Assembly (NCBI GenBank): GCA_043228905.1
Contig: JBHGNT010000006.1
Coordinates: 9,796,001-9,860,000 of the forward strand
Reading direction: 5' to 3'
Source of the DNA: Azolla caroliniana
Taxonomy: Eukaryota > Plantae > Polypodiophyta
Length of the DNA: 64,000 bases
The notes beneath the pieces were generated by a model that was given only the letters and a program-made list of their open reading frames with translations, was not told the origin of the DNA and did no database searches. Position numbers and translations under genes: made by a program. Of the stretch, positions 1 through 58,445 are shown in pieces (positions within the stretch are counted from its first letter, which is position 1; every line of letters begins with the position of its first letter).

Positions 1-305
1 GAAATCCACAACAATAATAGAGTTGGTTAAAGTGCAACTAAAAACATATTTGAGTTTCAAGGCTTCTTTGTACATTGTTAAGGTGGAATTACATCTAGTA
101 ATAACATCAAGGCAAGGTCGTTCTCACTCTCCATGCTCATACATTGGTCTGGAATATTTTCTAAATATAGATAATGAACTTTACTAGAACATATGGATAA
201 CAAAGTATTTCTAAACTTCATAATGTAAGGTGAGATGATCTCTAATGCAAGCTTAATGCCAAATTGAAATACATGAACCATACATCCCAACATATTTGAT
301 GACGG

Positions 306-1131
306 TGTCATGGAGGATTTCAGCCACTAGGAGAAAGGACCGTCGGAAGCGTGTGAACAAGGGTGTGCAAGTATGCACATGAACTCGGTCTTTGTATTAA
401 AATAATGTAATAAAGAGAGTATTAATAAGTACAAGGTAGGAGTATTTAATAAGTACTTCATGATCATGCGAATAGAGGGGAATCATAGTGACTGATGGCA
501 GAAAATCGTGAGGGAATCTCGAACAGAAGCGGTTGTCATTACTACGGATGTAACGACCTCTCCTTGTGCTATAAAAGGAGAGGATTGAAACTGTAAAAGG
601 GATCCAATATTTGGGAGGAGGTAGATGTTTCCGGATTGTGATCTTGAGCACAAAGAGTTTTTGTTCTTCTTTTTTGGATCGGTGGTGTGAGGGCACTACT
701 CTCATAGGAAGCCCCTGTGCTCTCAACCAGAGGCTCACTTGTCTGTGGAGTGTGTGCGTGTACACCGAGCTCGAAGCTCTATTTCCGGCCCAAGGCCATT
801 CTTGTATTCGTTTCTATTATAATCGATTAACTTTGGCATTGTCGTATCCAGGTGCCCTTTCTCTAAGTCGTGTCCTTATTCCTAACTGGTTTGCGGTGCG
901 GGAAGGTATCGTCCTTCCCTTCTCTGTTCTGCGCTTTCTTGCTCGATCATGGTAGGAGTGTCGAATCAGATACAGTTCTCTAAGCCCATGTGGTTAGTAT
1001 CCGACCTTTGGTAACCAGGCCGGACAAGCCATTGCAAGCTTAGTAGTTGCTCATCCTCACCTCCTTGGTCTGAGACCCCTGAGGTCCCGCCCGAGCCGAC
1101 CCGCAAGGCGTGGATATCCGCGGAAATGACA
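306..1131. mobile_element. Solo LTR (Gypsy-type, 826 bp) inserted in the hAT transposase
   Basis: Ends TGTCAT...ATGACA with a TATA-like CTATAAAAGG at ~569. Removing it rejoins the hAT frame (..HANVF|PSSNMLGCMVH..). Flanks ACGG / AAAA do not form a clean TSD. Confidence 0.65.
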
Positions 1132-1614
1132 AAAAACATTTGCATGCATATCATGTATTAATCTACCCAACTCATTTGAGGCCATAATAGCATCACTAGC
1201 ACCATCTGATGTTATGGATAAAATATGCGAAGAAATACTAAAGGATTTCATGCGCATAAAGAAAGCTTGATCACAAAGCTTACCTACACCATCACCGTGA
1301 AATACATGAAAAAAATAAATGAGCAATTGTCTTAGCATATTCTCTACATATCCATTGTAATGTCATTGGACAAAATCCTTTCAAACTACTATTTGACCAC
1401 CCATCAAACATAACTAATTAACAAATGATAACTTAACTTACACTTGCCATATTGATCGTTTTAATGTACAGGTTGACCTAAGCCCATAACCTGGTAAGCC
1501 ATCATGCATGAATTGCTTAAAACCTAAGGACTCAACATGCACATGAGGTAATATTTTTGTGATTATATATTTTGTTATAGAGTTATGAGTTTTCTTCTCC
1601 AATGTACGAAATAT

Positions 1615-2921
1615 TGTGAAATGCACATAAGAGATCAAAACCAACCTACTTAGCTTCTTACGTCTTACTCAATTTGTAGTTGATACAAAGGTGCCCATTT
1701 GGGTTGGGTTAGCTAAAAAGGGTGTGCTAAAAGGGTGGCACAAAGGAACACATGCACACCACATTTCCCCCTTGAGAAAAACAAGAGACTAAGGAGCAGG
1801 AATAGGAGCAGTGGCTTGTCGAAGGAGCAGGTGCATCTGTTGGAGATAGAGCTCCCAAGTGGCATTATCATGGTGGCATGTTTTGAATGGACATCAATGG
1901 ACGATTCTTGTGGGAGGTGAGGATCACGCCCATAAAGTGCTTGAAAAGGGCTAATTCGTGCGGCAACCTCATGCTTGAGGGTCTTGTTGAGGCGTTCGGT
2001 GAGGCCATTGGACACCTAGTTGAGGCGTTCAGTATTAGGATATAAACACCTATTGGACACCTAGTTGAGTTGGAATGACGTTGAGGATATCCCCGTGGAA
2101 CTGGCGACCCTGATCAGATGATAGTTGGACGGGGCTAGTGACGGAAAACAAGCTAGAAATTGGCAGATAAAGATCAATCATTTCAGATATGGACTGAGGG
2201 CCACCTGGACTTGGTTGAGGTGGGGGACATGAGGGCTATAGGAGGATAGAGATCAATCGCTCATGTGGACTAAGGGCCACCTAGACTTGGCTAAGGTGGG
2301 GGATAGGAGGGCTATCGTGTACGAGCTAGCAATTGGCAGATAAAGATCAATCGTTTCTGTGGACTGAGGGCCACCTGGACTTGGTTGAGGTGGGGGACAT
2401 GAGGGCTATCGTGTACGAGCTAGCAATCGGCAGATAAAGATCAATCATTTCTGTGGACTGAGGGCCACCTGGACTTGGCTGAGGTGGGGGACAGGAGGGC
2501 TATAGGCGGATAGAGATCAATCGTTCCTGTGGACTAAGGGCCACCTAGACTTGGCTGAGATGGGGGACAGGAGGGTTATAGGCGGATAGAGATCAATCGC
2601 TCCTGTGGACTGAGGGCCACCTGGACTTGACTAAGGTGGGGGACAGGAGGCCTATCATGTAGGAAGGGGATCGGAGAAACTCGTGGGACAAGAAGTTAGT
2701 GGGCAACCTAAGGTGAGGGGGAAGAGGTGGATACTTGGATGTGGGGTACTGGTGCCGTCATCTCCACCAATATGTGAAATGCATATAAGAGATCAAAACC
2801 AACCTAGTTAGCTTCTTACATCTTACTCAATTTGTAGTTGATACAAAGGTACCCATTTGGGTTGGCTTAGCTAAAAAGGGTGTGCTAAAAGGGTGGCACA
2901 AAGGAACATATGCACACCACA
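1615..2921 (-). mobile_element. Small non-autonomous (TRIM-like) Gypsy-derived LTR element with 149-bp LTRs
   Basis: LTRs 1615-1763 and 2773-2921 (TG...CA) with a 4-bp TSD ATAT. On the minus strand: PBS TGGTGGAGATG (tRNA-Ala-like) and a purine-rich PPT (plus-strand TTTCCCCCT at 1764-1772). Integrase remnant SNGLTERLNKTLK..SPFQALYGRDP at ~1900-2130. Confidence 0.85.
2150..2660. repeat. Tandem array, ~6 units of ~77-94 bp, inside the small LTR element
   Basis: Recurrent GATCAATCG..TGTGGACTGAGGGCCACCTGGACTTGG..GAGGTGGGGGACA core. Confidence 0.85.
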
Positions 2922-4919: not shown

Positions 4920-6912
4920 TTCGAATTCCCAGTGAGGACCGCACATGGTCGCTCACGCCCATTGGTGTCCCAATTCCCAGTGAGGACCATATTGGGTCGC
5001 TCATGCCCGTTGGTGTTCGTGTCTCTTGTCAGGACCACACATGGTCACTCACATCCATTGGTGTTTGTTTCTTCAATGAGGACCATACAGGGTCGCTCAC
5101 ACCCATTGGTGTTCCAGTTCCCGGTGAGAACTACACATGATCGCTCTCTCCCATTGGTGTTCTAGGTTCCGGCGAGGACCGCACATGGTTGCTCATGCTT
5201 GTTGGTGTTCACGTTGTCATAAAGATTCCGGGCCATAGTGAGAAACCGGGGAATATCAGAGGAATCGGCAAGGTGCACCATGTGCACCCACTCTTGTAAA
5301 CTTGTATAGGGGAATGTGGGGGCGCCTTTATGACGCCGAGCGGCAATAAAGTCGGGACGGAAGATCCCATGTATCACGGGATTTATCCCACATAGCCACA
5401 CGACCCTCACCTTGTTCTATAAAAGGGAGGGTGCGCTTCTTGTACAGGGGTTCCCACCCGTTGGGTCCCAAACTGTTTTGTTCTTCATTGTTCCCCTTTG
5501 TGGGTTCCATTTTTTTTGTTAATAAACTTCTGTGTATAACATCTATTTCTGTCTTCTCTTCATCTTGGTGTGTGTGTTGTCTCTATTTTTCTGTTAGGGT
5601 TTCGGTGCCATCTGTGTGCATGCGTAGGTGGTGTGTTCGGTTGTGGCAGGCGGTGTGCGGGTTGTTTGCGCCTCCCCTGAGCTCCTGTTTGTTGGTTCTC
5701 AACACTCCACGGTCCGGTATGTCAGTGTGTGCGTGGGTGTTGGCTTCTGTCGCTTGTGAAGAGCCCGCGCGCTAGGTGGTTTGTTGGCAGTTTCCCCTTC
5801 TTGGCACGCAAGACCCAACTCAGTTCAGTAAACCCGTGCGCTCCCTGAAGGCGACTTGGCTCAGGAGGCGGTCGTTCTGGAAGAGGCTCAGGAGGGTCCC
5901 ATCACGCGAACGACCCTGAGAGCTCCCCGACCAGCCCTAGGATGCAGGCTCCCTCTTCCTCTCCGTGTGGAACTGGCGTCACAGCGAGCGTCGCGCGCGC
6001 GCGCGCGCGTGTGTGTGTTTCCGGTTAGCGTAGGATACGAGAGAGGGTGCGTGCATGGTCGCCGGTGCAAAGGTGCCGATTGTAACCGGGTGTATATGTG
6101 TGTGTGTGCATGTGCGCGGGCGCAGTTAACCGGGCCGTGTCCCGAGCCTCTTTTGGGCCCCTTGTACATATGGGCGAAAGGGGCGGCAAGGACGAGGGCG
6201 CGTTCTCTCACTTCCTGTGCGGTTACCGGTCGTGTCCGAAGAGTATCTGGGGTCGAACCGGCCGGCAACCCGGCAAGCTTCGGAGGATTCGGGTTCTCGG
6301 GAAGTCCTCCCTTCCTGGTCCATGACTTCGGTGGTCCCACCTGGATCCAACATTACAAGCGCGGATTACCGCAACATCGTCTCCGGTGAGGACCGTACAT
6401 GGTTGCTCATGCCCGTTGGTGTTCCAGTTCCCCGTGAGGACCATACATGATTGCTCACATCCGTTGGTGTTCCAGTTCCTAGTGAGGACCGCACATGGTC
6501 GCTCACGCCTGTTGGTGTTCGCATTCCCGGTGAGTACCGTACATGGTCTCTCATGCTCATTGGTGTTCTAGTGCCTGGTGAGGACCGCACATGGTCACTC
6601 ACGCCCGTTGGTGTCTAGTTCCCAGTGAGGACCGTACATGGTCGGTCACATCCGTTGGTGTTTGTGTCTCCGGTGAGGACCACACATGGTCGCTCACACT
6701 CGTTGGTGTTCTAGTTCCCAGTGAGGACCGTACATGGTCGATCACGTCCATTGGTGTTCCACTTCTCGGTGAGGACATCACATGGTCACTCACATCCATT
6801 GGTGTTCCAGTCTCCTGTGAGAACCACACATGGTCACTCGCGTCCATTGGTGTTCCAGTCTCCGGTGAGAACAACACATGGTGGCTCATGCTGGTTGGTG
6901 TTCCAGTCTCCG
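4920..6912. repeat. 48-bp tandem array (~17 units; 4920-5214 and 6381-6912), split by a solo LTR
   Basis: Unit approx. GTGAGGACCGCACATGGTCGCTCACGCCCGTTGGTGTTCCAGTTCCCG; it gives 16-aa periodic translations (e.g. SDHVRSSPGTRTPM) in the ORF track. Confidence 0.9.
5215..6376. mobile_element. Solo LTR (~1.16 kb, Gypsy-type) inserted in the 48-bp array
   Basis: TGTCATAAAG...GCAACA ends, TATA-like CTATAAAAGG at ~5417, 4-bp flanks ACGT/TCGT. The array unit is restored on removal. Confidence 0.8.
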
Positions 6913-9900: not shown

Positions 9901-10792
9901 GATGGGTCGGAGTTGGGGCTCGGAGTCGGTAACCAATACCATGATGTCGACTCGTCAAATTCAAGATCTTGGCTCACTCGAACTTGTTTTATTCGGGGGT
10001 TATAGCACTTATAACCCTTTTGCTCATGTGAGTAGACGACAAGGATACACTTCTCTGACTTCGGGTCCAACTTTCTCCGTCTCTCATCCAGCACATACAC
10101 ATAGGGAATGCTAAAGAATACCCTAAGGTGTCGTAAATTCAGCTTACACCCAAAATATAGCTTGTGTGCTAACACTTTATCCCCGATCTGGTTTTGGATA
10201 TAGACGGTCGTCCAGGCCGCCTCGATCTAGTAGAACTTGGGCATGCTCTTCTCTTCCATCATCGCCTGTGCCGCCTCCATAATTGATTGTTTCTTCCTCT
10301 CGGCAACGCCGTTGTCATGAAGATTCGTCACTACGCGCGGATTGTGAGGCAGAACCGTCGGGGTTCTAGACCGGAAGGATTCGACGTTTGCACAAGCTTT
10401 AGCGAGAAAGTATTTAAGAGAGATTGAAAGAGAGAGATTGAGATTAAGATTCCAATTTTAAAACAGATTCAGAACGATTGAAATTGAAAGAGAGATTAAG
10501 ATTGAACTCTTGACTTTAGATTTAAAGAACAAGATTAATACATCAATTGGATAACGAATTTTCTTCTTCTTAAATTCTTGAATACTACATAGCCCTCTTG
10601 ATCTTTTTCATCCATCCTTTTAGAGATGCTCCCATGCATATGATGCATGTGAGGGTACAAGACATGCATACAATGCATGGAATGCATGTGATGCATGTTT
10701 GCCATTTGGCGCTCATGCATCACATGTCACTCAATCAAGCTCTAATATGAGAATTTACATGAAAAGTATAATGATAGGAAAAACATTTCTAA

Positions 10793-10872
10793 GGAAATAA
10801 CATAGCCTAGTGGTAAGTCTATTGCCTCCTATCTTGGAGGTGCAAGGTTCAAGTCTTGCTTACATCCTTTTT
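10793..10872 (+). promoter_or_regulatory. tRNA-like RNA polymerase III cassette (A box, B box, oligo-T) within the left Gypsy LTR
   Basis: A box TAGCCTAGTGG (10803-10813), hairpin CCTCC-TATCTT-GGAGG, B box GGTTCAAGTC (10846-10855) flanked by GCAAG/CTTGC, then TTTTT. Absent from the sister LTR (~17520). Confidence 0.5.
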
Positions 10873-13800
10873 ATAACACAAAATACTATTACGCTTTTGG
10901 ACCAAATATCTTTAAAACACCATGCACCGCGATCAACCGACCCAACCGATTTGCATTCGTTCGGTTTGGCCCGATTCGGTCTGCATCCCGAGGTTACCGG
11001 ATGTCGGATGCCAGGTCACCGGTTCCATCGCCGGATGTCGTCACCGTCCATTACCAGATCCGTTGTCGAATGCCGGTCACCGGTTGCTGCCGGTTTTGGT
11101 TGGCCAAAACCTCGCCGAATGCCGGGTCATCGGACACCGGTTGCCGGATCTATCCGGCCGCCGGTCGCCGGCTCCGTCCAGTCACCAATTGTCAGCTCCA
11201 TCCAGTTTCCAATTCTGTCGACAGCCGGTTTGAATTTCTTCATTGGCCGGTTCAAGCACTTAGCCACGTCCGGCGACTTAGCCACATATGTCCATCTAGA
11301 CAAAAGTGGCTCAAGTCCAACTATTTCTTATGTGCTCTTAAGACATAGATAAAATATGATGGATCTCAATCTGCTTATATAGCTGGAGCCTAAACTTTTT
11401 CTATCTATGTGGGATATTTCACAGTTTTCTTTTTTTCTTTTTTTTCTTTTGCAAAACATTATACCCACATAACTTGACACTTAGATGTTTGTTTCTTATG
11501 TAGTAAAAAGCATTTGAAAGCTCTTGAAGACATCCATCTTCCCGTATCAAGATATTAAGCTAATCTAAAATAGTATCTTCCCTATTATTGTTTCATGTCT
11601 CGTGTGAAGAACCACGCTTAATTTTGTACGTTCCACACAATTTTCACACCGTTGCCAAAAATCTTCACGACATCCAGCCCCTCCAAACCGCACATCCTTC
11701 GGTATGTGCCAAGAAGAGAGAGTGTGAGATTTCGGCAACGGTGATCAATCAGATTCCTCCACGTGTTCATTCACATTCGCCCTATTATCTTCATCGTCGA
11801 GGTGATCGAGGTCAAGATCCTCGTCTTGTCTTTTCTTGAAAATCTTTACTCTTTTCCTCGCAATGGATACGGCCAACTTTGATCCGTCTAGCTCCGCAAG
11901 GTGGTATGTGGCATTATCGTTGGCACTTGTCACCACATACGGTCTAAACCATCTTCTTGCGAACTTTCTTGTTGTACTGTGTTGATTGTCAAGGTTGTTG
12001 TCGTAGACAAATACCCAATCTCCTTCTTCGATCTTCTTGGGACGCAATCAATGCATCTTGTCGAACCAAATTTTGTTCTTCACTCAGGTTGCCTCCATCA
12101 TCTTTCGCGCTTTTTCTAGATCTTCAGGTTTTCTTTCAAGTTGCCTTATCCGTGCCACTAATAACTCTTCTCGGTTCATCTCGTTCTCCCATGGTTTCGC
12201 TACCCATGAGGCGATCGTCCTTTCGATGGGAATTACCGGCTTTTGTCCATACATAACCTCCGTTGGCATATACCCTGTCACCGAGCTGTGTGTCGTTCTG
12301 TCAGCCCACAAGGCATAGGGCAATAGTCGTGGCCAATTCCCGACTCGACCGTTGCATGCTCGTATGATGGCTTTGACGAGAGGTCCATGCCCTCGCTCGA
12401 TCTTCCCATTCGCTTCTGGATTGTAGGCAGTCGTGAGGGAGAGCTTCATGCCTAGTCGTTCGAAAAGCTCCATTGCTTCGTGTGCATCCAACTCCCCTCC
12501 ATCGGCAACTATCTTTCCCACGCATCCGTATTGGTAGACAACCTCTTCGAGTAGAAATTTGCAAACAGCTGATGTTGTCTTATTTGTCAAGGCCCGTCCT
12601 TCCACTTGATTTGTCAAGTCTTCTCTTGCCAGAGCTAAGTACTTCATTTGTCCCACTCCCATTGGCATTGAGACCAGATCCACCATCCATTTGAAGTATA
12701 TGATGAGCGGGTATGTCGGTCGTAGCTCAACACGATGACGTATATTCGAATATACTTGGCATGTTTCGCATGTGGACACAAAATGGAGTACATCTTTGTA
12801 CATGCTTGGCCACCAATACTTCTCCTTCAACTTCTCGAACGTCACCCATGTTCCTCTATGACCTGTCTAGGCACTCTCGTGGAATTCGGTCGTTAACATC
12901 ACTTGCTCTTCTTTCTTCACCACCACTCAACGTGATATTCTTGTCCTTCTTTTTGGGTATCGCCAAAGGAAGCCTCCCTTCAAGAAGAATTGATAAGCTT
13001 TCTTCCGGATTCGTAGGGCCTCCTCCTTCGTCAACGAAGTATCCGCCGTCATTGTTTTTAGGAATCGGCCGATCAATAACCACTCTCCTTCGTACTCGAC
13101 CTCGTTGAAGGCGTGGAGGGTTAGCGTGTCCTTGTCTTCCGCCTATAGTCGAGCCATCTTGAAGAAGTCGAGGGTGACGTCTTCATCTTCCAAAACCATG
13201 TCACTTTCATTCTCAATTCTTGCCCTCGACAGCATGTCAGCCATGGCATTCTTCTTCCCTACAATATGGCGGATCTCTGGGTTTAAAGATTTGATATAAG
13301 TGATCCACCTTAGCATAACTAGATCTGGTGTCACACATCCTGAGATCATCCCGAGGATTGGGAGACAATCTGTCTCAATTATTACTTCCGATCCGATCAG
13401 GTAGTCTTTGTCTGTCTTCACTGCCGACACAATACCCCAAAGTTCCCGCTTGAATTGGGCATATCTTTGTTGTCGTTTGCTGAGAACCTTTGCTCCAAAC
13501 CGGATGGCATACCACGCATTATCTTCTCCTTCTTGGTTGATGACCCACCCAATTCCAGTTGGGCTCGTATCTATACCTACATAAATCGGCCTCCCTTTGG
13601 TATAGTCGGCCTTTCTTAGTGCTGGAGCTTCAAGAAGTAGTTTCTTCAATCTTCGCATCGCGTTTGTGTGCTCGTCTCACCATTCGAACTTCATTCATTG
13701 CTTTAGCAACCCATATAAAGGCTTGGCGACATGGGCGTAGTGCGGAATCCAGACATGATAAAACGCGCATGCTCCAAGGAACCTTTGAACCTCCGTTTGG

Positions 13801-16800
13801 TTTACTCATTCTTCTTTCATATCTTGGATCGCGTTCACCTTGGATGGCAAAGGCTTCCGGCCGTATGCTTGGGTTTTCCACGTAAAACATCTTGTGTACT
13901 CTTCTCTCCTTTGTGTTGTGCATTCATTCCCGTTTTCTGTTTATGATTCTAAGCTCGGTTGTGGTCGAGCATTGCGCATAGGGAGCATGTAGTTCCCATC
14001 ATAAGGAGCATTCAACGGTTCCAGAATTCCCATATTCACCTTCTCCTTTAAGAGCTCGATCAGCTTTGGTAGGTGTGTTCTCGAAACCAGTATCGGTTTC
14101 AAATTCCAAGGTACGTGCGGTACCGTGAAGATCACCATCGGCTCTATCGTCCTTGGATCAGCACATCTGATTTCTTGTGGGAAAAATGCGAAAACTTTCC
14201 CATGTCTCTCAAGCATGTCGCGAAACATTCGCTCTTATTCAAGGAGGAGGAAATCCTCCTTTCCAACTCGTAGCTTTCCCTTCGTCTCTTCGGTGAAGAC
14301 ATGACCTATTGCCTTCAAATCCCTTAAAGCTTGGATCATTCGCGACTTCCTTCATCTTTTGCTAGCTATCTTCCGGTAGCGGAACCGCAATTGGCTTGAT
14401 CTTCTTATCCACCGTTTTATATTTTGTGTTAACTTCAACTTCCTCCATCAAGATGCCATGATGGTATTCATCGATGGTAGCGTACATGTTGATGGAGTTA
14501 ACTGAAATCACGTGTTGATCATGAAGATAGCTCAAGTCCACGACTTCCTCGATTTTGTCTATGGTGTCGTTAAATGAGGCTTCTTCCATAATATGAGTCA
14601 CGAACTCTTCTTCTTCTATTATGTTTTCTTCTTTAAGCATCTTCTCAAAGTCTTGTATCCGATGCTTGTCCTTCTTGTCAGGTAGTACTAGTTTACATGC
14701 GCCACTAGGTGTGACACATGTTGCTTCTCCTCGCAATCCATGAGCTCTACTCCTTTGTGGGGACTTTTGATCGCTCGGACTATTTGTGCCCCGTGCTTCA
14801 ATAGTCCGCTCTAAAAATCCGGGGATTCGCCGCCAAGACTATCTCGATTTCTTTCATGATTAGCTCACACCGTTAGGAATTGAACAGATCTTTGATTGTC
14901 AAGACTCTTGATTCGCGCGAAGGCTGCTCCATTATCGAACACCTTGGTCTCCATCCGGGATGATGTGATATATGGTTTTCCTAGGATGACAGGATGCGAC
15001 GTTGATTCTTGCATGAAGAAGTGTTGATCCATCTCCACATCCCCGATCGTGACTTTAACATTGGGACAAGCTCCGTACAAGTCCTCCATAGACTTTGCTG
15101 CCGCTCGAATCTTCCATCCGTGGTTTGTATTGATTGGCCATCTTCCTTTTTTGTAGAACTCGGTTGACATGAGGTTGATCTCCGAGCCATGGTTGATCAA
15201 GGCTACCACGGTCTCTTTCTTCTCCTCGATCTTCACCAGCGTCTTCATTGTCACTCGTGCCCAATGAGGTCGAGTATAGTGGTTGTCCACCATATCTTCA
15301 TCGACTTCGTCTCTTGCCATCGTTATGGCATTTGTTTTTGCTCTTTGTGGCTTCTCTTCTTCCTCGTCTGATTGTTGCCTCTTTCTTTTTACAAGGTCCA
15401 CGATCGTGTCATGGAACTCCTTCATAATGCTGAGTAGTTCCCTCAAGGACAAAGTCACATGGCTATCAAGAATGCGTTCCTCGAGAATCTTCTTCAAGTC
15501 TGTCGTCTGCTCTATGTCCCACCTTAGCTTATAGGTAGGCATAGTCCTTGTCTTTCGAGTGGGGTCTTCGACACCAATTTTCACAGGCCGAATCGTTTCT
15601 TCGACTCGTTTGACCGACTCCGCTTTTCGACTAGCATCTCCTTCCTCCATTTGTAAAGATCGACTTGTTTCTGCATCTTCTTTCTTTTTCACGTTCCTTG
15701 TTCCATGTCTTTTTTATGGGCCTTGCTCTTCTATTATTTTTCTCTTTTATTCGACGCACACCTCGTGGTTGTCGCACATCACTTCCGCGAGTATGGTGTT
15801 GTCATCCACCCAGTTATGCTTTGCATGCTTCAATTCGCAAGCTCTACCTCATTCGATGTGACCTTCCCCATCTTCTCATACTCGAGAACAGGAGACCAAA
15901 ACTTTGCTCCCACTTTCGCAGCTTCATTTTTGTCTTTCCCGGCTCTTATTCTGGCCGTTGCAGCATAGTGCATCGCATCCACATGAGTTGCCTCAACATC
16001 TTCCATAGATTTCTTCATTCCCCCTCTTCCGAAATTCACCCGCAAGGGTCTTCGAGTTTCAGTCGAGCAGATCATGTTGTCATCTATGTATACGATATTT
16101 TGTCGAATCGCCTCTCGAAGGCTCGCGCAATCCCTTCTCATGTGGTCCATGTTATCGCACCACACGCATCTAAAGGGTTCTTTTCCTTTGGGGCCCCGAC
16201 GATTCATGTTGGCTAGCGTGACCATCTCGAACTTCTTCGCTAGCTCTTCGATGATGTCGTCATCAATTTTATTTTCTTCTGGGCTTCTTCGTTTGGGCGG
16301 CTCAGCTACTTTCGGTTGTCTTGTTTTCTCCGCGACAGTCAATCCCGCCAAGTCGGTGTCATCAACCAACTGACGACGCGTGTCGAGCCTATTGCATGCC
16401 ACAAGCTCATTCGCTTGGGTATCATCTTCGAGGAGAGTACCCGGTTCTCGTCTATCCTTTATATCCACAGCCTTTAGGAAGTACAAAGTTTTGTACTCCT
16501 CAAGTAGCACTTGGTCTGTGGTGGGGAGACGACGAAACATTTGGTCGAATTCGTTGTACACCCTCGAGGCGCTCATCTTCTTATTCTTCTTTTCTATCCA
16601 CTTCATCAAGACATGTTGAGTCATCCTCGACCATTCTTCCGTCGCGAACTCCGCTAATATCGCTTTCTCGAACTCCGACCACGTTGTCTTCCCTTCTTGA
16701 AGCTCGATGACGCGCCTTTGGATGTTGTTGGCGACCACTCTCTTGAAACTTGTGATTTGACGCGCTTCAAACATGTCCCTTTGATTCATCTCCATTCTAT

Positions 16801-17563
16801 ATGCGTCAAGGAACTTCGTAATGTTCCTTCCGTCAAATTAACCCTCGAGCTCAATGACACGGTCGACAGCCTTCTCCGCGCTCGCATCGTTGTCTCGAGA
16901 TCTCATCATTTGTTCGACAATCAGCATCATCCTTTCGAACTTTCCCTCTTGGTTGCTTGAGGATTCCATCTCCAAGTATCGGTTTATCCTCGATTTGATC
17001 CTTCATGTCGCCTCTTTCACATCGGGTTCACCACTTAATTATGTCATGAAGATCCGTCACTACGCGCGGATCGTGAGGCGGAACCGCCGGGGTTCTGGAC
17101 CAGAAGGATTCGACGTTTGCACAAGCTTTAGCGAGAAAGTATTTAAGATAGATTGAAAGAGAAAAATTGAGATTAAGATTCCAATTTTAAAACAGATTCA
17201 GAACGATTGAAATAGAACGAGAGATTAAGATTGAACTCTTGACTTTAGATTTGAAGAACAAGATTAATACATCAATTGGATAACGAATTTTCTTCTTCTT
17301 AAATTCTTGAATACTACATAGCCCCCTTGATCTTTTTCATCCATCCTTTTATAGATGCTCCCATGCATATGATGCATGTGAAGGTACAAGACATGCATAC
17401 AATGCATGGAATGCATGTGATGCATGTTTGCCATTTGGCGCTCATGCATCACATGTCACTCAATCAAGCTCTAATATGAGAATTTACATGAAAAGTATAA
17501 TGATAGGAAAAACATTTCTACGGATCCTTTTTAAAGCACAAAATACTATTAGGCTTTTGGACC

Positions 17564-18018
17564 TGTTAAGAATTAGGTAAGTAATTAAGCAGGGATTAAT
17601 TAGTACCTAATTATATAATTAGTTGATAAGCGAAAGATTATGTGATATGTGTGTGTATGTGTGTGAGAGGAAGAGAGAGAGAGAGAGAGAGAGAGAGATA
17701 CACTTATGAACAACACAAGATGGGGGATGAGTAACTATATTAAATTAGCTTTATCATCATCAAATACAAAAATACCCACAATTAGGTATATATACATCTC
17801 ATGTGCAAAGGTGCACATGTGTGAATAGAATATATGTACTAATGTGTAAGTCCTATATTAAATGTACTTAGGAGTGGAGGATTTACAATATCCCACTTAA
17901 GTACAAGGTCCTATTTAAGGTGTTATAGTCAACACTTCTAACTAGATTCTATCTAGGTAACTACGAAGTTACATGGATGACTAACTAACTAAACTAAGTT
18001 GAGCTTGATCTCTCAACA
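17564..18018. mobile_element. Solo LTR (455 bp) inserted in the Gypsy 5' LTR
   Basis: TGTTAAGA...TCTCAACA ends and a perfect 5-bp TSD GGACC. The sister LTR shows the empty site (TTTTGGACCAAATATC). Confidence 0.92.
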
Positions 18019-26482: not shown

Positions 26483-26654
26483 TGTATCAGGCAGACCATA
26501 CAAGGACAATTTTGAGATTTGTACAAGTTTAGTTGGTTGGTCGCAAAATGTATATTGCGTGCGAGAGATCATATCGTGGGCCTTGTAGTGGGCTTTCAGA
26601 GTCAAGCCATAGCTGAGTGTCTTATATGGATGGGGTCATGGCTAAATTAGTAAT

Positions 26655-26793: not shown

Positions 26794-26797
<4 letters not shown>

Positions 26798-42107: not shown

Positions 42108-45100
42108 TTCGGGATCCTCGGGCTCACAGCTCCGGTTCCTCCTGGCTTCACGCCTCGCTCGTGCTCCTCGACCTGTTCGACTCCGCGCGCTTCGACCCTT
42201 CCTGTCGGCTTGTCTGCTCATGCGGCCCTTATCAACTCTTCTTCTGTTGCGGTGTTGACGCTTCTCCTGCTGCCTTTTCTTCCGCTTGGGCCTCGGTTGA
42301 TTTAGCGTGTCTGAATCAAACATCCGAACCGACTTGGCTACCTCCGATCGGTTTTCGCTCTCGTCCGAGTTGGCTGTCTCCAACTCGTCTTCGGTCTTCT
42401 CGCCTTCGATGGCGTCATCTTCCCCATGCGTGGTTGGCTTCGGCTCTCTCCTTCGGTTGCTCCCCTTCTGTCTGCTTCCGAACTTTTCCGCGGGTCCGCC
42501 AACGGCTTCTTCAGCCGATCCGATGTCGAACTTGTCAACCGACTTGGTGTCGCGGTCTCCGCTCCTTTCCTGTTGCCTTGCTTGGTCGTTCAGGACTGTT
42601 CTCCCCCTCAAGTTCGGCACGTTGAGGTGACGCAACCCGAGCGCACCTGAGAATTGCCGCACCTTGTCCAGACCAAGTGGCTTGGTGAAGATGTCAGCAG
42701 TCTACCGATCCACGGAACGTACTGAAGTTCGACTTCACCGGAAAGGACACGCTCACGGACGAAATGATAGTGCACCTCAATGTGCTTGGTCCGTGCGTGG
42801 AAGACGGGGTTCTTCACGAGCTGGATGCTGTTGAGGTTGTCGCAGTAGATCGTCGTCGGATTTGACACCTCCTCTTGCAGGTCCTTAAGTAGCCGCTTCA
42901 ACCATATGGCTTCGCATGTCGCGATAGCCGCTCCTCGGTACTCCGCTTCGGTGCTCGATAGTGCAACTGTCGGCTGCTTCTTACTGCTCCACGCGATCGC
43001 GGCACTCCCGAGGGAGAACGCGTATCTAGACGTGGATCGGCGATCAGCGGCGTTGCCAGCCCAATCAACATCGGTGTAGCCGACTAACTGCACGGCTGCA
43101 CCGGTCTGATATAGCAGTCCTCGGTCCTTAGTGCCACTTACGTACCGCAGGACGCGTTGCGCACACTGAAGGTGCTCCTTGGTAGGTCGCGCCATGAACT
43201 GACTGATCACCCTGACCGGATAACTGAGGTCGGGTCAGGTGAAGGTCAAGTATATGAGGCTTCCGACAATTTGTCGAAACCTCGTCAGGTCGCATACCTT
43301 TCCCGTATCGGGACGAAGCTTGACGGTTCTGTCCAGAGGAGTCGAGACGGACTTACAGTCGGTCATCCCGAGTTTGAAGAGCATACTTAGCACGTAATGA
43401 CGTTGGCTGATCAATATGCCTTCGGGGGTACGGATCACTTCGATCCTGAGGAAGTAGTGAAGGTCCCCTAGATCCTTCATGTCGAACGATGCCGCAAGCT
43501 GGAGCTTCACGCGGTCGATTTCACCGAGGTTGGCGCCGGTGATGACCAAGTCATCAACATATAGTAAAATACTAACCGGTCCGAGTCGACCTTTCCGGAT
43601 GAACAGGGAAGAGTCCGATTTTGACGTGGCGAAGCCCATCCGACGCAGTTGTTGCGTGATCTTTGTGTTCCAGGCACGCGGGGCTTTCTTCAGTCTGTAA
43701 AGGGACTTCTTCAGTCGGCATACTGCCGAGGAGTTCGATCCAGAGTGAAATCTGGGGGGCTGTACCATGTACACGTGTTCCTCAGCTACTGCGAGCAAAA
43801 CACGGACGGTCGTCATTTTCGCGACCAACGCAAACGTCTCATCGTAGTCGATGCCGTGTTTTTGCGCGTAGCCCTTTGCCACTAGCTGAGCCTTGTGCCG
43901 GTTGACGGAGCCATCGGTGTTGTACTTGACATTGTACACCCATCTACACCCGATCGGCTTCACACCCTTCCGTGCGTCAACTAGGTCCCAGGTCTCGTTC
44001 TCTGCCAGTGCATGCATCTCTTCCTCCATCGCGGTGCGCCAATTCGCGTCCTTCGCCGCTTCTGCGTAGCTCTTAGGCTCACGCACTTCCGCTACACGGG
44101 TCATGTACGCATAATGATGCGCCATGTACTCGTTATATCCGAACCGCACAACGGGGTTCTTTTGGCGGGTAGATCGGCGTAATCTCACATCAGCCGATGT
44201 CGAGGCCTTCTCGGTCGATGCGGTCTTCATCTTTAAAGACCTGTCACCGGTTTCCTCGGAGTCGGAATCGCGTTGTTCTGACTTGTTCCTTTCCATGCCG
44301 GAATCCGACGCCTTCTTCTTCCCTTTCTCTTTGCGCGTAAGCCGTCTCCTCGCTTCCTGCACGGGGAATGCACGGCCGAGTCTCCACTACTCGCCGGCTC
44401 TTCATCGGACTGGTCGTACCGACTCAGTCGTCCAATCGGTCCACTTAACCGTAGTGAAATCGGACTGTCTTCGCGGGTCTCGATTTCGGGCTCATCCGGA
44501 GGCATCTCGGCCTCACTGACCTCATCGTCAGAGCTCGGATTGGAGTCGAGGTTCGTAGTCGGGGGTAGGTACCAGGACGCGGACTCGTCAAACACAACGT
44601 CGCGGCTGACACGCGCTTGTTTGGTGCGAGGGTTATAGCACTTATAACCCTTCTGCTCGTCTGAGTAACCGACCAAGATGCACTTCTCGGCCTTTGCGTC
44701 CAGCTTCCTTCTTTTCTCCTTCGGTACATGCACATACGCAATGCTGCCGAACACCCTCAAGTGTCGCAAGTTCGGCTTCGTTCCGAAATATAGCTCGTGC
44801 GCCGACACTTTGTCTCCGATCCGGTTCTGGATGTATACCGTGGTCCTTACCGCCTCGGCCCAGTAGAACTTGGGCAAGCTCTTCTCCTCCAGCATTGCCC
44901 GTGCTGCTTCCACAACTGACCAATTCTTCCTCTCGGCCACGCCGTTCTGCTCTGGCGTGTATCTACAATTGAATTCGCGGCGAATTCCCATTTGTTGTAG
45001 ATAACCGTTGAATTGACTGGAAAAGTACTCTTTTCCGCCATCCGACCGCAGGCACTTGATCTTTCGTCCCGTTTCGGCTTCCACGAACCCTTTGAGGTCC

Positions 45101-47705: not shown

Positions 47706-47758
<53 letters not shown>

Positions 47759-47775
47759 GCCTTACATGCACGCGT

Positions 47776-47809
<34 letters not shown>

Positions 47810-52297: not shown

Positions 52298-52774
52298 TGT
52301 CGTGAAGAAAATCGTCCCTAGGCGGAAACCGAGTTTAGCGTGTGTAAACCGGCCCTTACACGCGAGCACACTTTTCGTTGTATAGTAAGTAGGTAGGTAC
52401 AAGTCGGCTGAGAGGAAATCCTAGGTAGCATGCATTCAATAGGGAGCGAATCGAGGTGTATCTCTGTCCGAAAGGACAGAGAATTAATATGATGTAACGG
52501 ATGATAACGGCCTCCCTCCTTGGGCTATAAAAGAGAGGGAGAGGAATGGGGAAAAGGGGGACGCGCGTTAGAGAGGAAGAAGTGCTGTCGGACTGGGACC
52601 GAGCCCTTCTCCTCTGCCACTCTCCATAGCCATTTTTGCGCAGGGTTTTCGGGAGGCTGACTCTGCTCCGTGGGAAGCCCATGTGCTTCCGGTAGAGTCT
52701 CCATCTCGCTCTTCTATGTGTGTGAGTGAACAGGCGTCGGCGTTCGCCTTGCCGGCCTATTAGTTGTAACCATC

Positions 52775-52812
<38 letters not shown>

Positions 52813-55180
52813 TATACATACGTGTTCATATACTCGGACTTCTAGTCGTCTCGTGTTGCTGTGTCGTTGGACTGTGATTCCTGTGTGCTCCCGTGTCTGT
52901 GCGTGTGCAAGTGCGTCTGTGGCCTTTCCGCTCTCCTCCTTCTCAGTTATTTCTCGGTCCAAGACCCTGGTGGTCCCGCCTCGTTCCCCACGCACGTGCG
53001 TAACAACGCGACACATTTGGTGAACCCGACGTGAAACGAGCGGCAGAGGAATAGAAAGATGAGGGGGTAGGATCTCGCGGAAGCCATGGCTTCGGCTGTG
53101 GATCGGATAGTGAGTGCGCGCGAAGGCGCAGGCGCCCTCAATAGGGCTATTGAAGCGGTCGTCGGCACGATAGGCCGGTTCGGTCGGAAGGAAGCCACGA
53201 GCTATTTGGAGGCCTACCGGGCCGAGATGGTAATGAGAGACATTCCGGAAGAAAGGAGACTGATCGGATTCCCTCCGGTGGCGATGCCGGGCATCCATGC
53301 GGAGGTGCTCGAGGTACGAGCTGAGAGCCGGACCTGGGAAGAGTTTGAAGGTCGGCTCCTCGAGAAATACGGGCTTGATGACGCGCTTCGGCTCTCAAAA
53401 AGGAACTTCATGGAATGGGTAGAGACCCCCGAAAAGGGGAGAAACGCGTCGGTGCTCCTTCGGGAGTTTGAAGAACGCCTCACGTGTCTTTCGGCACTCG
53501 ACTAGACCGTACTAGACACAAGTTGCGTCCTGCTGTTCGTTAAGTCAGTGGATGCGAGGGACCGGGAGCAAGTGGGTCTCCTATTGGAGACTGATGATGG
53601 ACTGACGGTCGACTGGGCCATGGTGAAGAGAGGTTGTGGCCGTTTCGACAAATGGCAAGAGTGGGTTGATAAAGGATCAACAGGGGCGGGCTCTGTAGCG
53701 GCAAGGAAACTCGAGCCAACCCCGCCAGCGCAAAGGGAAGAGACCCGAGACTGGCTCGAGACCGGATCGACTTTGACCGGCATGGTCAAAGGTTCGTCCG
53801 GAGGAGCAGCTCTAGAGGAGTTGACTAGGATGGTAAAAGACCTCCAGATTGCACAGGCACAGAGGGATGGTGGCAAAAGGCCCGTGACCAAAAGCCTCTG
53901 GCTGGAAACCGGTGTTTGTGGTGCGACGCGGTCGGCCACGTCCGGAGGGACTGCGGGGACTTTGCCGAGGCAATGAGAGCCAACGTGGTGTACCTGTGGA
54001 ATGGTCGGGTGCACGCTAGCGAGACCCGAAGGGCCCTGGACCTGAATGTCGGACGAGGGGGTATGAAACGGCTGATGGAAGAAGCGGCGGCTCGCCACGC
54101 GGAGACTGTCCACTACTCAGCGTCGGCTGGGATCCGGGTCAGAGGTGGTGAGGCTCGACAACCAGCACAGGGCAACGCGGAAGTTTGCAAGGAGGTGGTT
54201 CGGGCCTTACGTAGTGACAGGCGGCAACGACAACGGGACCTACCATCTTGCAAAGCTCGACGGTACGAGGATGGCAATACTGGTAGTGGGGAAGAGGGTC
54301 AAAGAGTTTAAGAAATGACATGAGTGCGTGCTGGACCTGGGAAGCGTGGATGGCGACGACGGGCAGTCCGAGGCGGATGAAGAACCGGAAGGCGAAGAGT
54401 AAAGCATGGACTGGTTTTCTCCAGCAAGAGCCGATTTTGGCGCATACTGGAGGATGCGCGGTTAGGTGGGGGTGGATGTCGTGAAGAAAATTGTCCCTAG
54501 GCGGAAACCGAGTTTAGCGTGTGTAAACCGGCCCTTACATGTGAGCACACTTTTCGTTGTATAGTAAGTAGGTAGGTACAAGTCGGCTGAGAGGAAATCC
54601 TAAGTAGCATGCATTCAATAGGGAGCGAATCGAGGTGTATCTCTGTCCGAAAGGACAGAGAATTAATATGATGTAACGGATGATAACGGCCTCCCTCCTT
54701 GGGCTATAAAAGAGAGGGAGAGGAATGGGGAAAAGGGGGACGCGCGTTAGAGAGGAAGAAGTGCTGCCGGACTGGGACCGAGCCCTTCTCCTCTGCCACT
54801 CTCCATAGCCATTTTTGCGCAGGGTTTTCGGGAGGCTGACTCTGCTCCGTGGGAAGCCCATGTGCTTCCGGTAGAGTCTCCATCTCGCTCTTCTATGTGT
54901 GTGAGTGAACAGGCGTGCGTCGGCGTTCGCCTTGCCGGCCTATTAGTTGTAACCATCTCGATATATATATATATATTAATATACATACGTGTTCATATAC
55001 TCGGACTTCTAGTCGTCTCGTGTTGCTATGTCGTTGAACTGTGATTCCTGTGTGCTCCCGTGACTGTGCGTGTGCAAGTGCGTCCGTGGCCTTTCTGCTC
55101 TCCTCTTTCTAAGTTATTTCTCGGTCCAAGACCCCGGTGGTCCCGCCTCGTTCCCCACGCACGCGGGTAACAACGCGACA
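52298..55180 (+). mobile_element. Internally deleted tRNA-Trp-primed Gypsy element nested in Copia A
   Basis: LTRs 52298-53013 and 54477-55180, 4-bp TSD CCAT/CCGT. PBS TGGTGAACCCGACGTGA at 53018, PPT AGGTGGGGGTGGA. Gag 53086-54150 (WCDAVGHVRRDC) is fused to the integrase C-terminus (RKFARRWFGPYVV). Confidence 0.93.
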
Positions 55181-55308
55181 CCGTACTGAAGCCGATCAGT
55201 TGATCGAAGCCAGCCAAAGGAGTCGAAGTATGATGATAATAGAGCTGAACAAGGAGAACGAAGCAATCGAACAATCGAAATCGTAAGCCGTGTTGACTAA
55301 CTTTCTGA

Positions 55309-55630
55309 GAACATGTTCAGGCTGGAGATGTTGACTTACAACACATCCACATGAATCTTCAGGTTCCTAACATCGTTAGTAAGGCCTTAGGAGTCGACAA
55401 GCTCAGGCAATTTACATCGGATCTTGATCTCATGATATCTGCATTGTCGAGCTTGAGAGGGAGTACCGGAAAATAACAGTAATTGCCAATAGTATCGTCA
55501 ATGCCGAACTGAAGCCGATCAGTCAATCGAAACCGGTCAGAGGGGTCGAAGTATGATGATAATTGAGCCGAACAAGGAGCATGAAGTAATTGAACAATCG
55601 AAATCGTAAGCCGTGTCGACTAACCTTCTG
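55309..55630 (+). repeat. Tandem duplication of the Copia A RNase H end/3' region (copy of ~52100-52297 plus 55185-55308)
   Basis: GGCTGGAGATGTTGACTTACAACACATC..GAGCTTGAG(G/A)GGGAGTACCGGA..ACTGAAGCCGATCAG occurs twice. Confidence 0.85.
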
Positions 55631-55892
55631 AAAGCTTATTCAATTTTCGAGGATCAAACCAAACCAACTTTTCGACATCCGGAAGTTGTGTTCGAAGGGG
55701 CGTGTTGCGAATCGAACTCAACTTCCATAGAGATAGTGTTCACACTAGCCAATGGACATCTTACCAGGCGAGTTTTGTAATTAGTAGAAAGGGCACTTGC
55801 CCTAGACTAGTTGGTATTTAAACCAACTCCAAGTGTAACTTAGTCATTGTTGGATGTTATCATATTTTTTGTTAACACAACTTCTTGTTCTA

Positions 55893-55943
<51 letters not shown>

Positions 55944-56229
55944 ATGTGCACTCACACACACATAAAGCTCGCTTTCGTTGCATAGCACCACTTACGTCTC
56001 TCTTTCTTTACAATGCCATTATCGATATAATTAGTGATGCAATAGAACACGGTTCTTTGTGTCTCGAAACTTCACGCAACAAAATTTAAATTTAACTCTA
56101 ATTTATTATTATTATTTGAAACTTTTAAATTGTAATTTATCTTTTATTTGTATTGATATCTCTGTTTGGTGGGTTGCAATTGAACCTTTAAAATTGTAAT
56201 TGATCTTTTATGAATGTCTTTTATCTACA

Positions 56230-58025
56230 TGTTTGTTTGGTGAAAAGGTGGATATGGTGTGACAACCCTCACCACCAAAGAAGGGAATGCAAGGAGTTCC
56301 AAGAGTTCCTGTTAAGAAACACGGTTTATTTTGTAGGCAACACGGTCCACTCATCAGAAACAAGGCGCCCCTTGGAATTGAACTTTGGTTAAGGAGAATG
56401 AAGAGACTCATGGAAGAAGCCAAGCCACAAAATGTTGAGGCCATCCACTCCTCTACATCAGTAGGGGTTTAAGTGGGGAAAGAAGCACAAAACCAAGAGG
56501 GGTGAGAGGCTAAATTTTGGCCATCAATCATTGGGAGTCTAATGAAGAGGAAGAATGTAAATCGCAAAGGTGAGGCAGTTCTTGGGTGCCTATGCATTCT
56601 ACCACATTTGGATCCCCCATTTGCTCATAGAGTTGAGCCCTTATATGGGCTATTTAAGAAGAGACAAAAAGATGAGTGGGAAGTTGAGCACATAGAGCCA
56701 ATAGAGAGATTGAAGGAAAAGCTAGTAATGATGTTAGCTTTGTGAAAAATTGTGTACAAAGTGGGGATGCCCATTGACATGACTATAGGTAGGAGTTCAA
56801 CTAGGATTGGATGGGCCACCAATGACCAACATGCCATAAGATTTGGGGCAAAGGTGTTTAGTGAGCAACAAAAGGAATATGCCAAAGTAAAGAGAGAACT
56901 ACGGGGTATAGTGACTATGATGAAGGTAGATCAGGGTTACCTAATCGACATAGAGGTAGTGATTGAAACAAATTTTCTTCAAATCCTAGGCTCAAGGTGT
57001 GCACCATGAGACTTGGCCATGCTAAGGTGGATCGTGAACATAAAGTCGATGAATCTATAGGTCCATCATATCTCAAGCAAGAATAATGTCATGGTAGACA
57101 TATTCCAAAAGAGAAAGCAAATTTAAAGCAACATGATGTTGGAAGATGAATATGTCTCTCTTGATATCTTTAAGATGATCCAAGCATCTATTGTAGAAGA
57201 AAATGTGAAAGTGTGCAATGCCTTCAATGAACATGAATATGAAGGGGAGTGGTTGCATATAGGTAGATTACTAAGCTCAATGGAGGCGAACACTTCATGG
57301 TCCAAGGAGTACACACGAATTTTTTTAAAGAAAGTGTACAAATACTTCCTACAAGGAGGGTATCTCTAGCACCCAAAAATAGGATGGTGACACTAACAAG
57401 GGTGGTTTGCAAAGAGGAACAAACAACCTAGGTGTTTGAGTTCCATGAATGTCCTTGGGCAGTCCACAAGGACATTCATGGACAATGCCTTCAATGAACA
57501 TGAATATGAAGGGGAGTGGTAGCATATAGGTAGATTACTAAGCTCAATGGAGGCGAACACTTCATGGTCCAAGGAGTACACACGAATTTTTTTAAAGAAA
57601 GTGTACAAATACTTCCTACAAGGAGGGTATCTCTAGCACCCAAAAATAGGATGGTGACACTAACAAGGGTGGTTTGCAAAGAGGAACAAACAACCTAGGT
57701 GTTTGAGTTCCATGAATGTCCTTGGGCAGTCCACAAGGGTGTGTGGGAAACTTTTGCGAAGTTGAAGGAAAGTATTATTGACCCATGATGTATAAGGATG
57801 TTGCCCATTTCATGGGGACATGTGAAAGTTGCCAAATGCACTTGAATGTATGGCATAAAGATGAGTTACACCCAACCTTCTAGCTCTACATACACTTTAA
57901 ATGAATGGTGAACCTAGTTTCCATGTCACTGGGGGTACGCTAAATGAAGTGCCTAGTGCTCATGGGATAGGATCTTACATATAAGGTAGAAGGAAGGTCC
58001 CTAAGGAACAAAACCATGGCGATAG
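56230..58025 (+). mobile_element. Heavily degenerate, deleted internal region of the tRNA-Trp Gypsy lineage
   Basis: WCDNPHHQRREC, ETRRPLELNFG, AIRFGAKVFSEQQKEYAKVKRELRG and integrase remnants. 267-bp-period tandem duplication at 57215-57740. Confidence 0.8.
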
Positions 58026-58445
58026 TGTCGCATAAATGCATGTGTGTATGCTACTTGAGCAAGACCATGTGGGTCTTGGACTAGGGAGAATGCAAAGATT
58101 AGATGGGCACAATGTAAGGGACTCGAAGACTCAGAGGAGTCAAAAGCTCCCACGAGTCCGAACATCGGGGGGAGTTGAAGGATCCCATGAGTCAAAGGGT
58201 CACACAATTCGAACACTCTTGACAAGTTGAAGGGTGCGACGTGTTCCTCTCCTTTCCCCTCTCACTCTCACATAGTAGAACGATGATTAACGTACAAGGA
58301 TAGGCTCAAAACATGAGACTAACATAATGAACACGAGATTATGAAAGTTTTACACAAATTTATGACAAAAAAACCTCTTATTAGGCCAAAGCTACATTGA
58401 GAAAGTACCATTTATAAAATAGGGTATATAAATGTTGGTGGTAAC
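58026..58445 (-). mobile_element. Partial LTR related to the 20056 and 52298 LTRs, inserted in the degenerate Gypsy integrase
   Basis: Starts TGTCGC..TACTTGAGCAAGACCATGTGGGTCTTGGACTAGGGAG, matching 20056-20118. Left flank ATAG; cut by the next element. Confidence 0.6.

What the first reader, a model, noticed from the sequence alone, without database searches (positions are those of the whole stretch)
302..58030. LTR insertions with 4-bp target duplications centred on CpG: possible CpG-directed integration
Seen in sequence: five insertions have 4-bp flanking duplications: 1615-2921 ATAT/ATAT, 5215-6376 ACGT/TCGT, 10313-18822 CCGT/CCAT, 20056-21874 CTGG/TCGG (right end uncertain) and 52298-55180 CCAT/CCGT. 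Two more show only one informative flank (306: ACGG; 58026: ATAG). In all seven the central dinucleotide is CG or a methyl-C deamination product of it (TG, CA, TA). The other complete LTR elements here have ordinary 5-bp TSDs (GGATG, CGTCT, GGACC, ATGCC, ACAAC, TTCGG). Established: plant LTR elements mostly make 5-bp TSDs; 4-bp sequence-biased sites are known from some insect gypsy-group elements. Inference: the integrase cuts symmetrically around a CpG (N-CG-N), possibly favouring methylated TE DNA. All seven sites lie inside other transposons.
Basis: partly seen in the sequence, partly recalled or inferred. Interest (0 to 1): 0.78.

Follow-up and report, generated by a model that had tools for sequence, protein, structure and literature searches.

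The report
Fern retrotransposons insert at CG sites
In what is likely a fern, one group of jumping genes inserts at four-base sites centred on CG, a habit already published for the similar Phygy elements of a moss, so this is mostly known; one of the seven sites belongs to a separate small element that likely prefers ATAT.

Summary
The flanks are quoted correctly, but the seven sites are two different things. Six LTRs (306, 5215, 10313, 20056, 52298, 58026) are one kin of Phygy-like Ty3/gypsy elements in a fern-like host: 8.5 kb, no chromodomain, no extra RNase H. Three have paired 4-bp duplications with CG in at least one copy. For two of these, empty-site paralogs confirm the 4-bp length and the central CG. 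Contigs running past one LTR end give a majority flank starting ACGT (55 contigs; 35 in a second run of the same sample). So the CG preference is real. It is also published: Phygy has 100% 4-bp NCGN duplications (Neumann 2019). The ATAT site (1615) is an unrelated non-coding element whose family flanks start ATATG in three samples, so it is not deaminated CpG. The right flank at 20056 is not at an LTR end, and the right flank at 306 (AAAA) was left out. Nothing here shows a preference for methylated DNA: 91% of the available CpGs already lie in transposon-rich DNA. My look-ups found no earlier scan note on this feature. New: the fern host, ACGT as the commonest site, and the ATAT family.

The parts
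10313..18822 (-). Phygy-like Ty3/gypsy element, 8510 bp; 5' LTR 17042-18822, 3' LTR 10313-11672; gag (DUF4100)-protease-RT-RNase H-integrase, no chromodomain; broken by stops, and the RT core is missing; 4-bp duplication CCGT/CCAT; inside a copia element
52298..55180 (+). Internally deleted element of the same kin, 2883 bp; LTRs 52298-53013 and 54477-55180; same primer site; gag remnant plus integrase tail; duplication CCAT/CCGT
5215..6376 (+). Solo LTR of the same kin inside a 48-bp tandem array; duplication ACGT/TCGT
306..1131 (+). Solo LTR of the same kin; left flank ACGG, right flank AAAA (right copy likely lost by a small deletion; a paralog contig joins the two flanks)
20056..21874 (-). 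LTR of the same kin with a 105-bp tandem array; only the end at 20056 is intact (flank CTGG); the end near 21874 is not a terminus
58026..58440 (-). End of an LTR of the same kin (flank ATAG), inserted in the integrase of a decayed relative; right limit approximate, other end not found
56240..58025 (+). Decayed remnant of another Phygy-like element (gag, RNase H and integrase pieces), the host of the 58026 insertion
1615..2921 (-). Unrelated non-coding TRIM-like element, 1307 bp; 149-bp LTRs 96% identical; tRNA-Ala-like primer site, purine tract, internal 94/76-bp repeats; duplication ATAT/ATAT
44906..44985 (.). Empty-site paralog (second copia copy) of the 10313 target; reads CCGT at the site
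55466..55545 (.). Empty-site paralog (local duplication) of the 52298 target; reads CCGA at the site
26879..30833 (+). Host TORTIFOLIA1/SPIRAL2-like gene pieces, used only to place the host near ferns

Best explanation
Six of the seven sites are insertions of one kin of Phygy-like Ty3/gypsy retrotransposons, whose integrase leaves a 4-base duplication and likely selects a central CG by reading the DNA sequence itself, as published for Phygy elements of the moss Physcomitrium. Shown: the kinship, the 4-bp length, the CG at paired and empty sites, and ACGT as majority flank of one family. Inferred: a 4-bp stagger needs a sharp kink at the central step, which favours pyrimidine-purine steps, and integrase base contacts would narrow this to CG. 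After insertion the two copies decay by methyl-C deamination to CA or TG. Because CpG is 3 to 4 times denser in transposon DNA than near the gene, a pure sequence preference would steer insertions into older transposons with no chromodomain or methyl reader. The seventh site (1615) is a separate non-coding element, mobilised in trans by an unknown partner, that likely prefers ATAT.
For: Six LTR ends share a U5 motif (pairwise z 1.5-13.0, 28 of 30 values at 3 or above or within 0.1 of it; TRIM vs the six, -1.8 to 0.3) and the two with internal sequence share one primer site. Empty-site paralogs read CCGT and CCGA. Contigs running past the LTR end at 11672 have a majority flank starting ACGT and AT-rich after that: 55 contigs in X1, 35 in X4. 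Five host junctions in 4 of 16 metagenome loci of relatives read ACGT, ACGG, CCGC, CCAT, ATGT: 3 of 5 CG, 2 of 5 one deamination away. CpG decay between LTR copies is 30 of 78 (10313) and 7 of 51 (52298), enough to explain one-sided CA. Published Phygy row: 186 elements, 4 bp 100% (NCGN), 7656-9968 bp, tRNA-Trp 81%, no extra domain; this element is 8510 bp, coding spans about 5243 of 5369 internal bases, no chromodomain or second RNase H. 4-bp retroviruses favour central YR steps. CG frequency 0.049-0.056 in transposon blocks vs 0.015 in the gene-side block.
Against: No reference Phygy sequence could be read, so clade membership is not shown by phylogeny; named relatives were Riccia and Adiantum, none Physcomitrium. 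The flank majority gives no per-position frequencies, X1 and X4 are one sample, and rows for X2 and X3 at that place were not among the 24 of 1644 shown. It covers one family only; no row appeared at the 306 or 1131 ends. Two of six window sites show no CG (CTGG, ATAG), and intact relatives at the 58026 position are mixed (GCGG, TCGG, GCCG, TCAG, GCTG). One contig leaves the LTR with a flank that matches only the last two bases GT (table 8). The tRNA-Trp identity of the primer site is recalled; a search to confirm it found nothing.
Confidence: 0.8

Rival explanations
1. Methyl-CpG-directed integration: the integrase or a host partner prefers methylated CG, which steers the element into silenced transposon DNA.
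For: All six sites are in repeated DNA. CpG decay shows that these regions were methylated at some time. CG and CHG methylation cover repeats in the fern Ceratopteris. Phygy often sits inside Tcn1 in Physcomitrium and is enriched at predicted liverwort centromeres.
Against: 91% of CpGs outside the six inserts lie outside the gene-side block, so 6 of 6 has P = 0.58 without any methyl preference (the block is a rough stand-in for non-transposon DNA). No chromodomain or other reader domain was found after the integrase core, only a weak SH3-like match. Decay after insertion says nothing about the state of the target at insertion.
Confidence: 0.12
2. Generic YR bias: the integrase only needs a flexible pyrimidine-purine step, and the CG excess is small-sample luck in CG-rich transposon DNA.
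For: Retroviruses with 4-bp duplications favour central YR generally. Window sites include TG and TA; metagenome sites include CA and TG.
Against: CG is only 19% of YR steps here, yet it is seen at 4 of 6 window sites (P = 0.015 given YR) and 3 of 5 metagenome junctions, and it is the majority over 55 contigs whose further flank is AT-rich. Retroviral YR enrichment is only about 63% above a 22% background. Phygy is published as NCGN.
Confidence: 0.06
3. All seven sites, the ATAT one included, come from one CpG-cutting integrase, and ATAT is deaminated ACGT.
For: ATAT is formally two deaminations away from ACGT, and the duplication is also 4 bp. A non-coding element must borrow an integrase.
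Against: The LTRs are unrelated to the six and the primer site differs. With LTRs 96% identical, four independent changes giving the same ATAT on both sides are unlikely. Family flanks beyond 1763 start ATATG in X1 (40 contigs), X2 (48) and X3 (77), and 33, 33 and 53 contigs stay aligned through the ATAT at 1611-1614.
Confidence: 0.04

Closest known systems
Phygy clade, non-chromovirus Ty3/gypsy of Physcomitrium patens (REXdb; Neumann et al. 2019, PMC6317226; passages, section 9 and supplement MOESM5 read)
   Same: 4-bp NCGN duplication, size within 7656-9968 bp, no extra domain, coding region fills the internal part, primer site recalled as tRNA-Trp.
   Different: Host here is fern-like, whereas Phygy was defined as specific to the moss (later reported in a liverwort, PMC12885004). 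Phylogenetic placement against reference Phygy was not possible. The paper gives the motif in one sentence and one table cell, with no mechanism; here the commonest site of one family is ACGT.
TatI (REXdb)
   Same: 4-bp duplication (100%), tRNA-Trp primer (75%), about 9.1 kb.
   Different: TatI carries an archaeal-type second RNase H in 100% of elements; none here.
Selgy clade (Selaginella), for the 1615 element
   Same: 4-bp duplication (96%) and tRNA-Ala primer (90%); the primer site matches a printed tRNA-Ala 3' complement at 14 of 15 bases (compared by eye, human tRNA).
   Different: The element here is non-coding, so no lineage test is possible. Neumann et al. report no sequence preference for any lineage except Phygy.
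Drosophila Idefix clade (297, Quasimodo, Transpac; PMC3276498, passages) and ant PbTRIM (PMC3532108, passages), for the 1615 element
   Same: 4-bp ATAT duplication; the Idefix-clade motif is ATAT flanked by C and G, like the ATATG flank seen here.
   Different: Insect elements with other primers; no sequence relationship was tested. Plant TRIMs are described with 5-bp unpatterned duplications and a Met primer.
Retroviral intasomes with a 4-bp stagger (PFV, MoMLV, PERV, XMRV; PMC4422553, abstract and section 6)
   Same: 4-bp stagger with a flexible central YR step; base contacts by single integrase residues shape the preference.
   Different: Their bias is weak and spread over YR steps; here it is concentrated on CG.

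Membership tests
Phygy | RT/RH/INT phylogeny inside the Phygy clade of REXdb | not testable with these tools
   REXdb fasta and per-element table too large to read; no Physcomitrium-named relative.
Phygy | Ty3/gypsy order gag-PROT-RT-RH-INT with no chromodomain and no aRH | tested here: met
   RNase H runs straight into the H2C2 finger; only a weak SH3-like match follows the core. The RVT_3 hit on relative P0026 (E 0.047) overlaps the ordinary RNase H.
Phygy | 4-bp duplication, NCGN | tested here: met
   3 of 3 paired sites have CG in at least one copy; family majority ACGT.
Phygy | Size 7656-9968 bp, coding region spans nearly all the internal part | tested here: met
   8510 bp; about 5243 of 5369 internal bases (gag start placed by eye).
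Phygy | Primer site complementary to tRNA-Trp | tested here: inconclusive
   One conserved site in 2 window elements and 4 of 16 loci. The match to plant tRNA-Trp is recalled; two searches gave no confirmation.
Phygy | Host Physcomitrium patens (clade described as species-specific) | tested here: not met
   Best named hit of the host gene is Ceratopteris, 58%. Phygy has since been reported in a liverwort. I therefore write 'Phygy-like'.
TatI | Archaeal RNase H domain | tested here: not met
Chromoviruses (Galadriel, Tcn1) | C-terminal chromodomain | tested here: not met
   none in the last 100 integrase residues or in three full-length relatives.
Selgy (1615 element) | 4-bp duplication and tRNA-Ala primer | tested here: met
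   the tRNA comparison uses a human sequence printed in a preprint.
Selgy (1615 element) | Polyprotein phylogeny | not testable with these tools
   No ORF of 150 aa or more in the element.
Plant TRIM (1615 element) | Under 1 kb, 5-bp unpatterned duplication, tRNA-Met primer | tested here: not met
   1307 bp, 4-bp ATAT, Ala-like primer.

The most novel reading that the evidence does not exclude
A chromodomain-free plant integrase reads methylated CG directly at the centre of its 4-bp target and so homes into silenced transposon DNA. This would be a methyl-DNA targeting route conserved across moss, liverwort and fern lineages, with a second, ATAT-specific integrase active in the same genome.
Probability: 0.12. 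Interest if true: 0.75.

Novelty: new member of a known kind. Interest (0 to 1): 0.27.

Why it matters
The CG-centred target is already on record for moss Phygy elements, but in my searches only as a remark without mechanism. This window extends the habit to a fern-like host, with relatives in Riccia and Adiantum, and suggests a simple reason why such elements nest in other transposons: CpG is several times denser there. It makes one open question testable: whether the integrase reads CG or methyl-CG. The ATAT-preferring non-coding family is a small side result, because Phygy was reported as the only plant lineage with a target preference.

Tried and rejected
No whole genome is held for this window, so no direct genome-wide table could be made. 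The viral collection held no relative, no LTR-end match and no tRNA match. The 30 prokaryotic matches to the LTR-end pattern show no further likeness to the element and are chance. Cluster look-ups for 10 relatives gave no organism names. The metagenome loci are mostly collapsed assemblies: 12 of 16 gave no host junction, and the two flanks of L005 do not match each other (CCGC, ACGT), likely a chimeric contig, so they are counted as two junctions and not as a duplication. The 306 family could not be tested: no loose-end row at its ends among the 18 of 739 rows shown. A pooled count of 7 of 10 CG (P = 6.6e-4 given YR) was made before the fifth junction (ATGT) was found; it is now 7 of 11 and was not recomputed. 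Passages on Ylt1 and on Physcomitrium RLG2/RLG3 gave no target motif. A 5-bp reading of ATAT (AATAT with one base lost) was considered and dropped, since the family flanks start ATAT. A caveat on the ATAT result: LTR variants that continue ACATG past 1763 exist (table 5c) and may inflate positions 1 and 3-5 of the majority, one contig shows a TATG flank, and runs of one species share the same insertions. Look-ups of earlier scan notes by words and by sequence found nothing on this feature. I ran no fold or complex prediction because neither could decide target specificity.
Full report
Setting. The window is a nest of copia and gypsy elements around a TORTIFOLIA1-like gene. The best named relative of that gene is from Ceratopteris richardii at 58%, so the host is likely a fern; an earlier scan note on this genome also said fern. 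No whole genome is held.

Check of the observation. All quoted flanks are present. Four of the five claimed pairs sit at real TG...CA ends. For two of them the window itself holds an empty copy of the target. The modelled empty site at 10313 aligns best to a second copia copy with 4 bases removed (93.5 vs 89.5 for 5 and 86.0 for 3), and that copy reads CCGT. The site at 52298 aligns best to a local duplicate with 4 removed (108.5 vs 104.5 and 104.0), which reads CCGA. At 5215 a 4-bp duplication keeps the phase of the 48-bp array. The fifth pair fails: there is no CA at 21874, and 4 and 5 bases score the same. The LTR at 306 ends at 1131 and is followed by AAAA. A paralog contig joins position 299 to 1137 with 14 letters between, so the two flanks belong to one repeat and the right copy was likely lost by a short deletion (inference from one contig). 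CG alone is 4.5%. It is seen at 4 of the 6 related sites, P = 5.7e-5, or 0.015 given a YR step; the sites were chosen post hoc. Four of the six 5-bp controls pair around intact ends, GGATG pairs around one damaged end, and GGACC was not found.

Two kinds of element. The last 70 bases of six LTRs (306, 5215, 10313, 20056, 52298, 58026) share a motif; the weakest pair is 10313 with 58026 (z 1.5-1.7). The 1615 element scores -1.8 to 0.3 against them. The element at 10313-18822 is 8510 bp with gag (DUF4100), protease, RT, RNase H and integrase in gypsy order, no chromodomain and no second RNase H. It is broken by stops and lacks the RT core. The element at 52298-55180 is an internal deletion with the same primer site. 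Named relatives are from Riccia sorocarpa (up to 67% over most of the integrase query) and Adiantum nelumboides (up to 58%); unnamed metagenome relatives reach 91%.

Evidence beyond the window. Laying contigs of four runs on 10200-11800, those that run past the LTR end at 11672 have a majority flank that starts ACGT and is AT-rich after that: 55 contigs in X1 (overall agreement 0.38) and 35 in X4 (0.41). X1 and X4 are one sample, X1 may be the source of the window, no per-position frequencies are given, and X2 and X3 had no row for this place among the 24 of 1644 shown. These contigs still stand for many other insertion sites of the family. Among 16 metagenome loci of relatives, 4 gave five host junctions: ACGT, ACGG, CCGC, CCAT and ATGT. 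Between LTR copies, 30 of 78 CpGs (10313) and 7 of 51 (52298) have decayed to TG/CA, which accounts for CCGT/CCAT pairs. The two single-flank sites without CG (CTGG, ATAG) are neutral to mildly against; intact relatives are mixed at the 58026 position.

The ATAT site. The 1615 element is 1307 bp, non-coding, with 149-bp LTRs that are 96% identical and a primer site matching a printed tRNA-Ala complement at 14 of 15 bases. Contigs running past 1763, where the reference continues into the purine tract and so cannot select for ATAT, start ATATG in X1 (40), X2 (48) and X3 (77). At the other end 33, 33 and 53 contigs stay aligned through ATAT at 1611-1614 (18 of 739 rows shown). LTR variants continuing ACATG may inflate part of this, and one contig shows TATG. 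The simplest reading is a separate family with its own ATAT preference, not deaminated CpG.

What is known. Neumann et al. 2019 (PMC6317226; passages, section 9, supplement MOESM5) write that Phygy elements have an insertion preference for NCGN and are the exception among plant lineages. Their table gives 186 elements, 4 bp in 100% (NCGN), 7656-9968 bp, tRNA-Trp 81%, no extra domain; Selgy has 4 bp in 96% and tRNA-Ala 90%; TatI has 4 bp and tRNA-Trp but always aRH. Additional files 1 and 3 were too large to read and bear on clade membership and on Selgy targets. Jedlicka et al. 2019 (PMC6911290, passages) found 4-bp duplications with GC-rich centres and Phygy often inside Tcn1. Phygy domains are reported enriched at predicted centromeres of a liverwort (PMC12885004, passages). 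In a search for NCGN, only Neumann 2019 held the term among the 10 of 946 papers listed. Searches for Phygy in ferns, for CpG-directed LTR integration and for fern TRIM or Selgy elements listed no paper that describes this in ferns or gives a mechanism; I saw listings only, the library lacks most subscription papers, and passages of PMC13469084 and PMC9477723 had nothing on it. ATAT targets are known for the Drosophila Idefix clade (PMC3276498, passages) and ant PbTRIM (PMC3532108, passages). The tRNA-Trp identity of the primer site is my recall, not confirmed.

Mechanism. Shown: 4-bp stagger and central CG. Inferred by analogy with retroviral intasomes (PMC4422553, abstract and section 6): a 4-bp stagger needs a sharp central bend, which favours YR steps, and single-residue base contacts add specificity. 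Retroviral enrichment is only about 63% over a 22% background, so a CG majority likely needs real base reading. Methylation is not needed to explain the nesting. CG frequency is 0.049-0.056 in the transposon blocks and 0.015 in the gene-side block, and 91% of the remaining CpGs lie outside that block, so 6 of 6 has P = 0.58. Fern repeats are methylated (PMC9477723, passages), so a methyl-CG preference is not excluded, only untested.

Verdict. A real feature, correctly sensed, but mostly a rediscovery of the Phygy NCGN preference in a new host group, with one site wrongly pooled. New member of a known kind; interest 0.27.

Noticed in passing
window 35582-42107 (minus strand), 36018-36040: A young gypsy element (LTRs 97.9% identical, 5-bp TTCGG duplication) has no purine tract before its 3' LTR; an inverted primer-site-like sequence sits there instead. 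This fits earlier scan notes on a PPT-less, possibly dual-tRNA-primed lineage in this genome.
   Followed up: partly
window 1615-2921: High-copy non-coding element with a tRNA-Ala-like primer, 4-bp duplication and a family flank majority ATATG; its autonomous partner is unknown and may be Selgy-like.
   Followed up: partly
window 13870-13990: The RT core of the 10313 element (about 170 residues against P0002) is missing, and a short unrelated stretch sits there, with a weak 28-base likeness to the LTR end at 60586-60613.
   Followed up: partly
window 3795-7493: Non-coding LTR element (531-bp LTRs, 93% identical, 5-bp CGTCT duplication) with 30-bp and 48-bp internal arrays and no obvious primer site after either inner end; its termini resemble those of the 10313 element (z 3.3-4.1).
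   Followed up: no
window 55304-55642: Local duplication of the DNA on both sides of the 52298 insertion, without the insertion; it preserves the empty site.
   Followed up: yes
window 57216-57738: Near-perfect 267-bp tandem duplication (99.6%) inside an otherwise decayed element; recent, or an assembly artefact.
   Followed up: no
window 20311-21274: 105-bp tandem array of about 9 copies inside the 20056 LTR.
   Followed up: no
L010 about 3050-3085: A few TTTAGGG telomere-like repeats join a Phygy-like LTR to a copia sequence.
   Followed up: no
P0002 cluster and loci L001-L016: Unnamed metagenome relatives are much closer to the window's integrase (up to 91%) than any named liverwort or fern protein; their hosts are unknown.
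   Followed up: no
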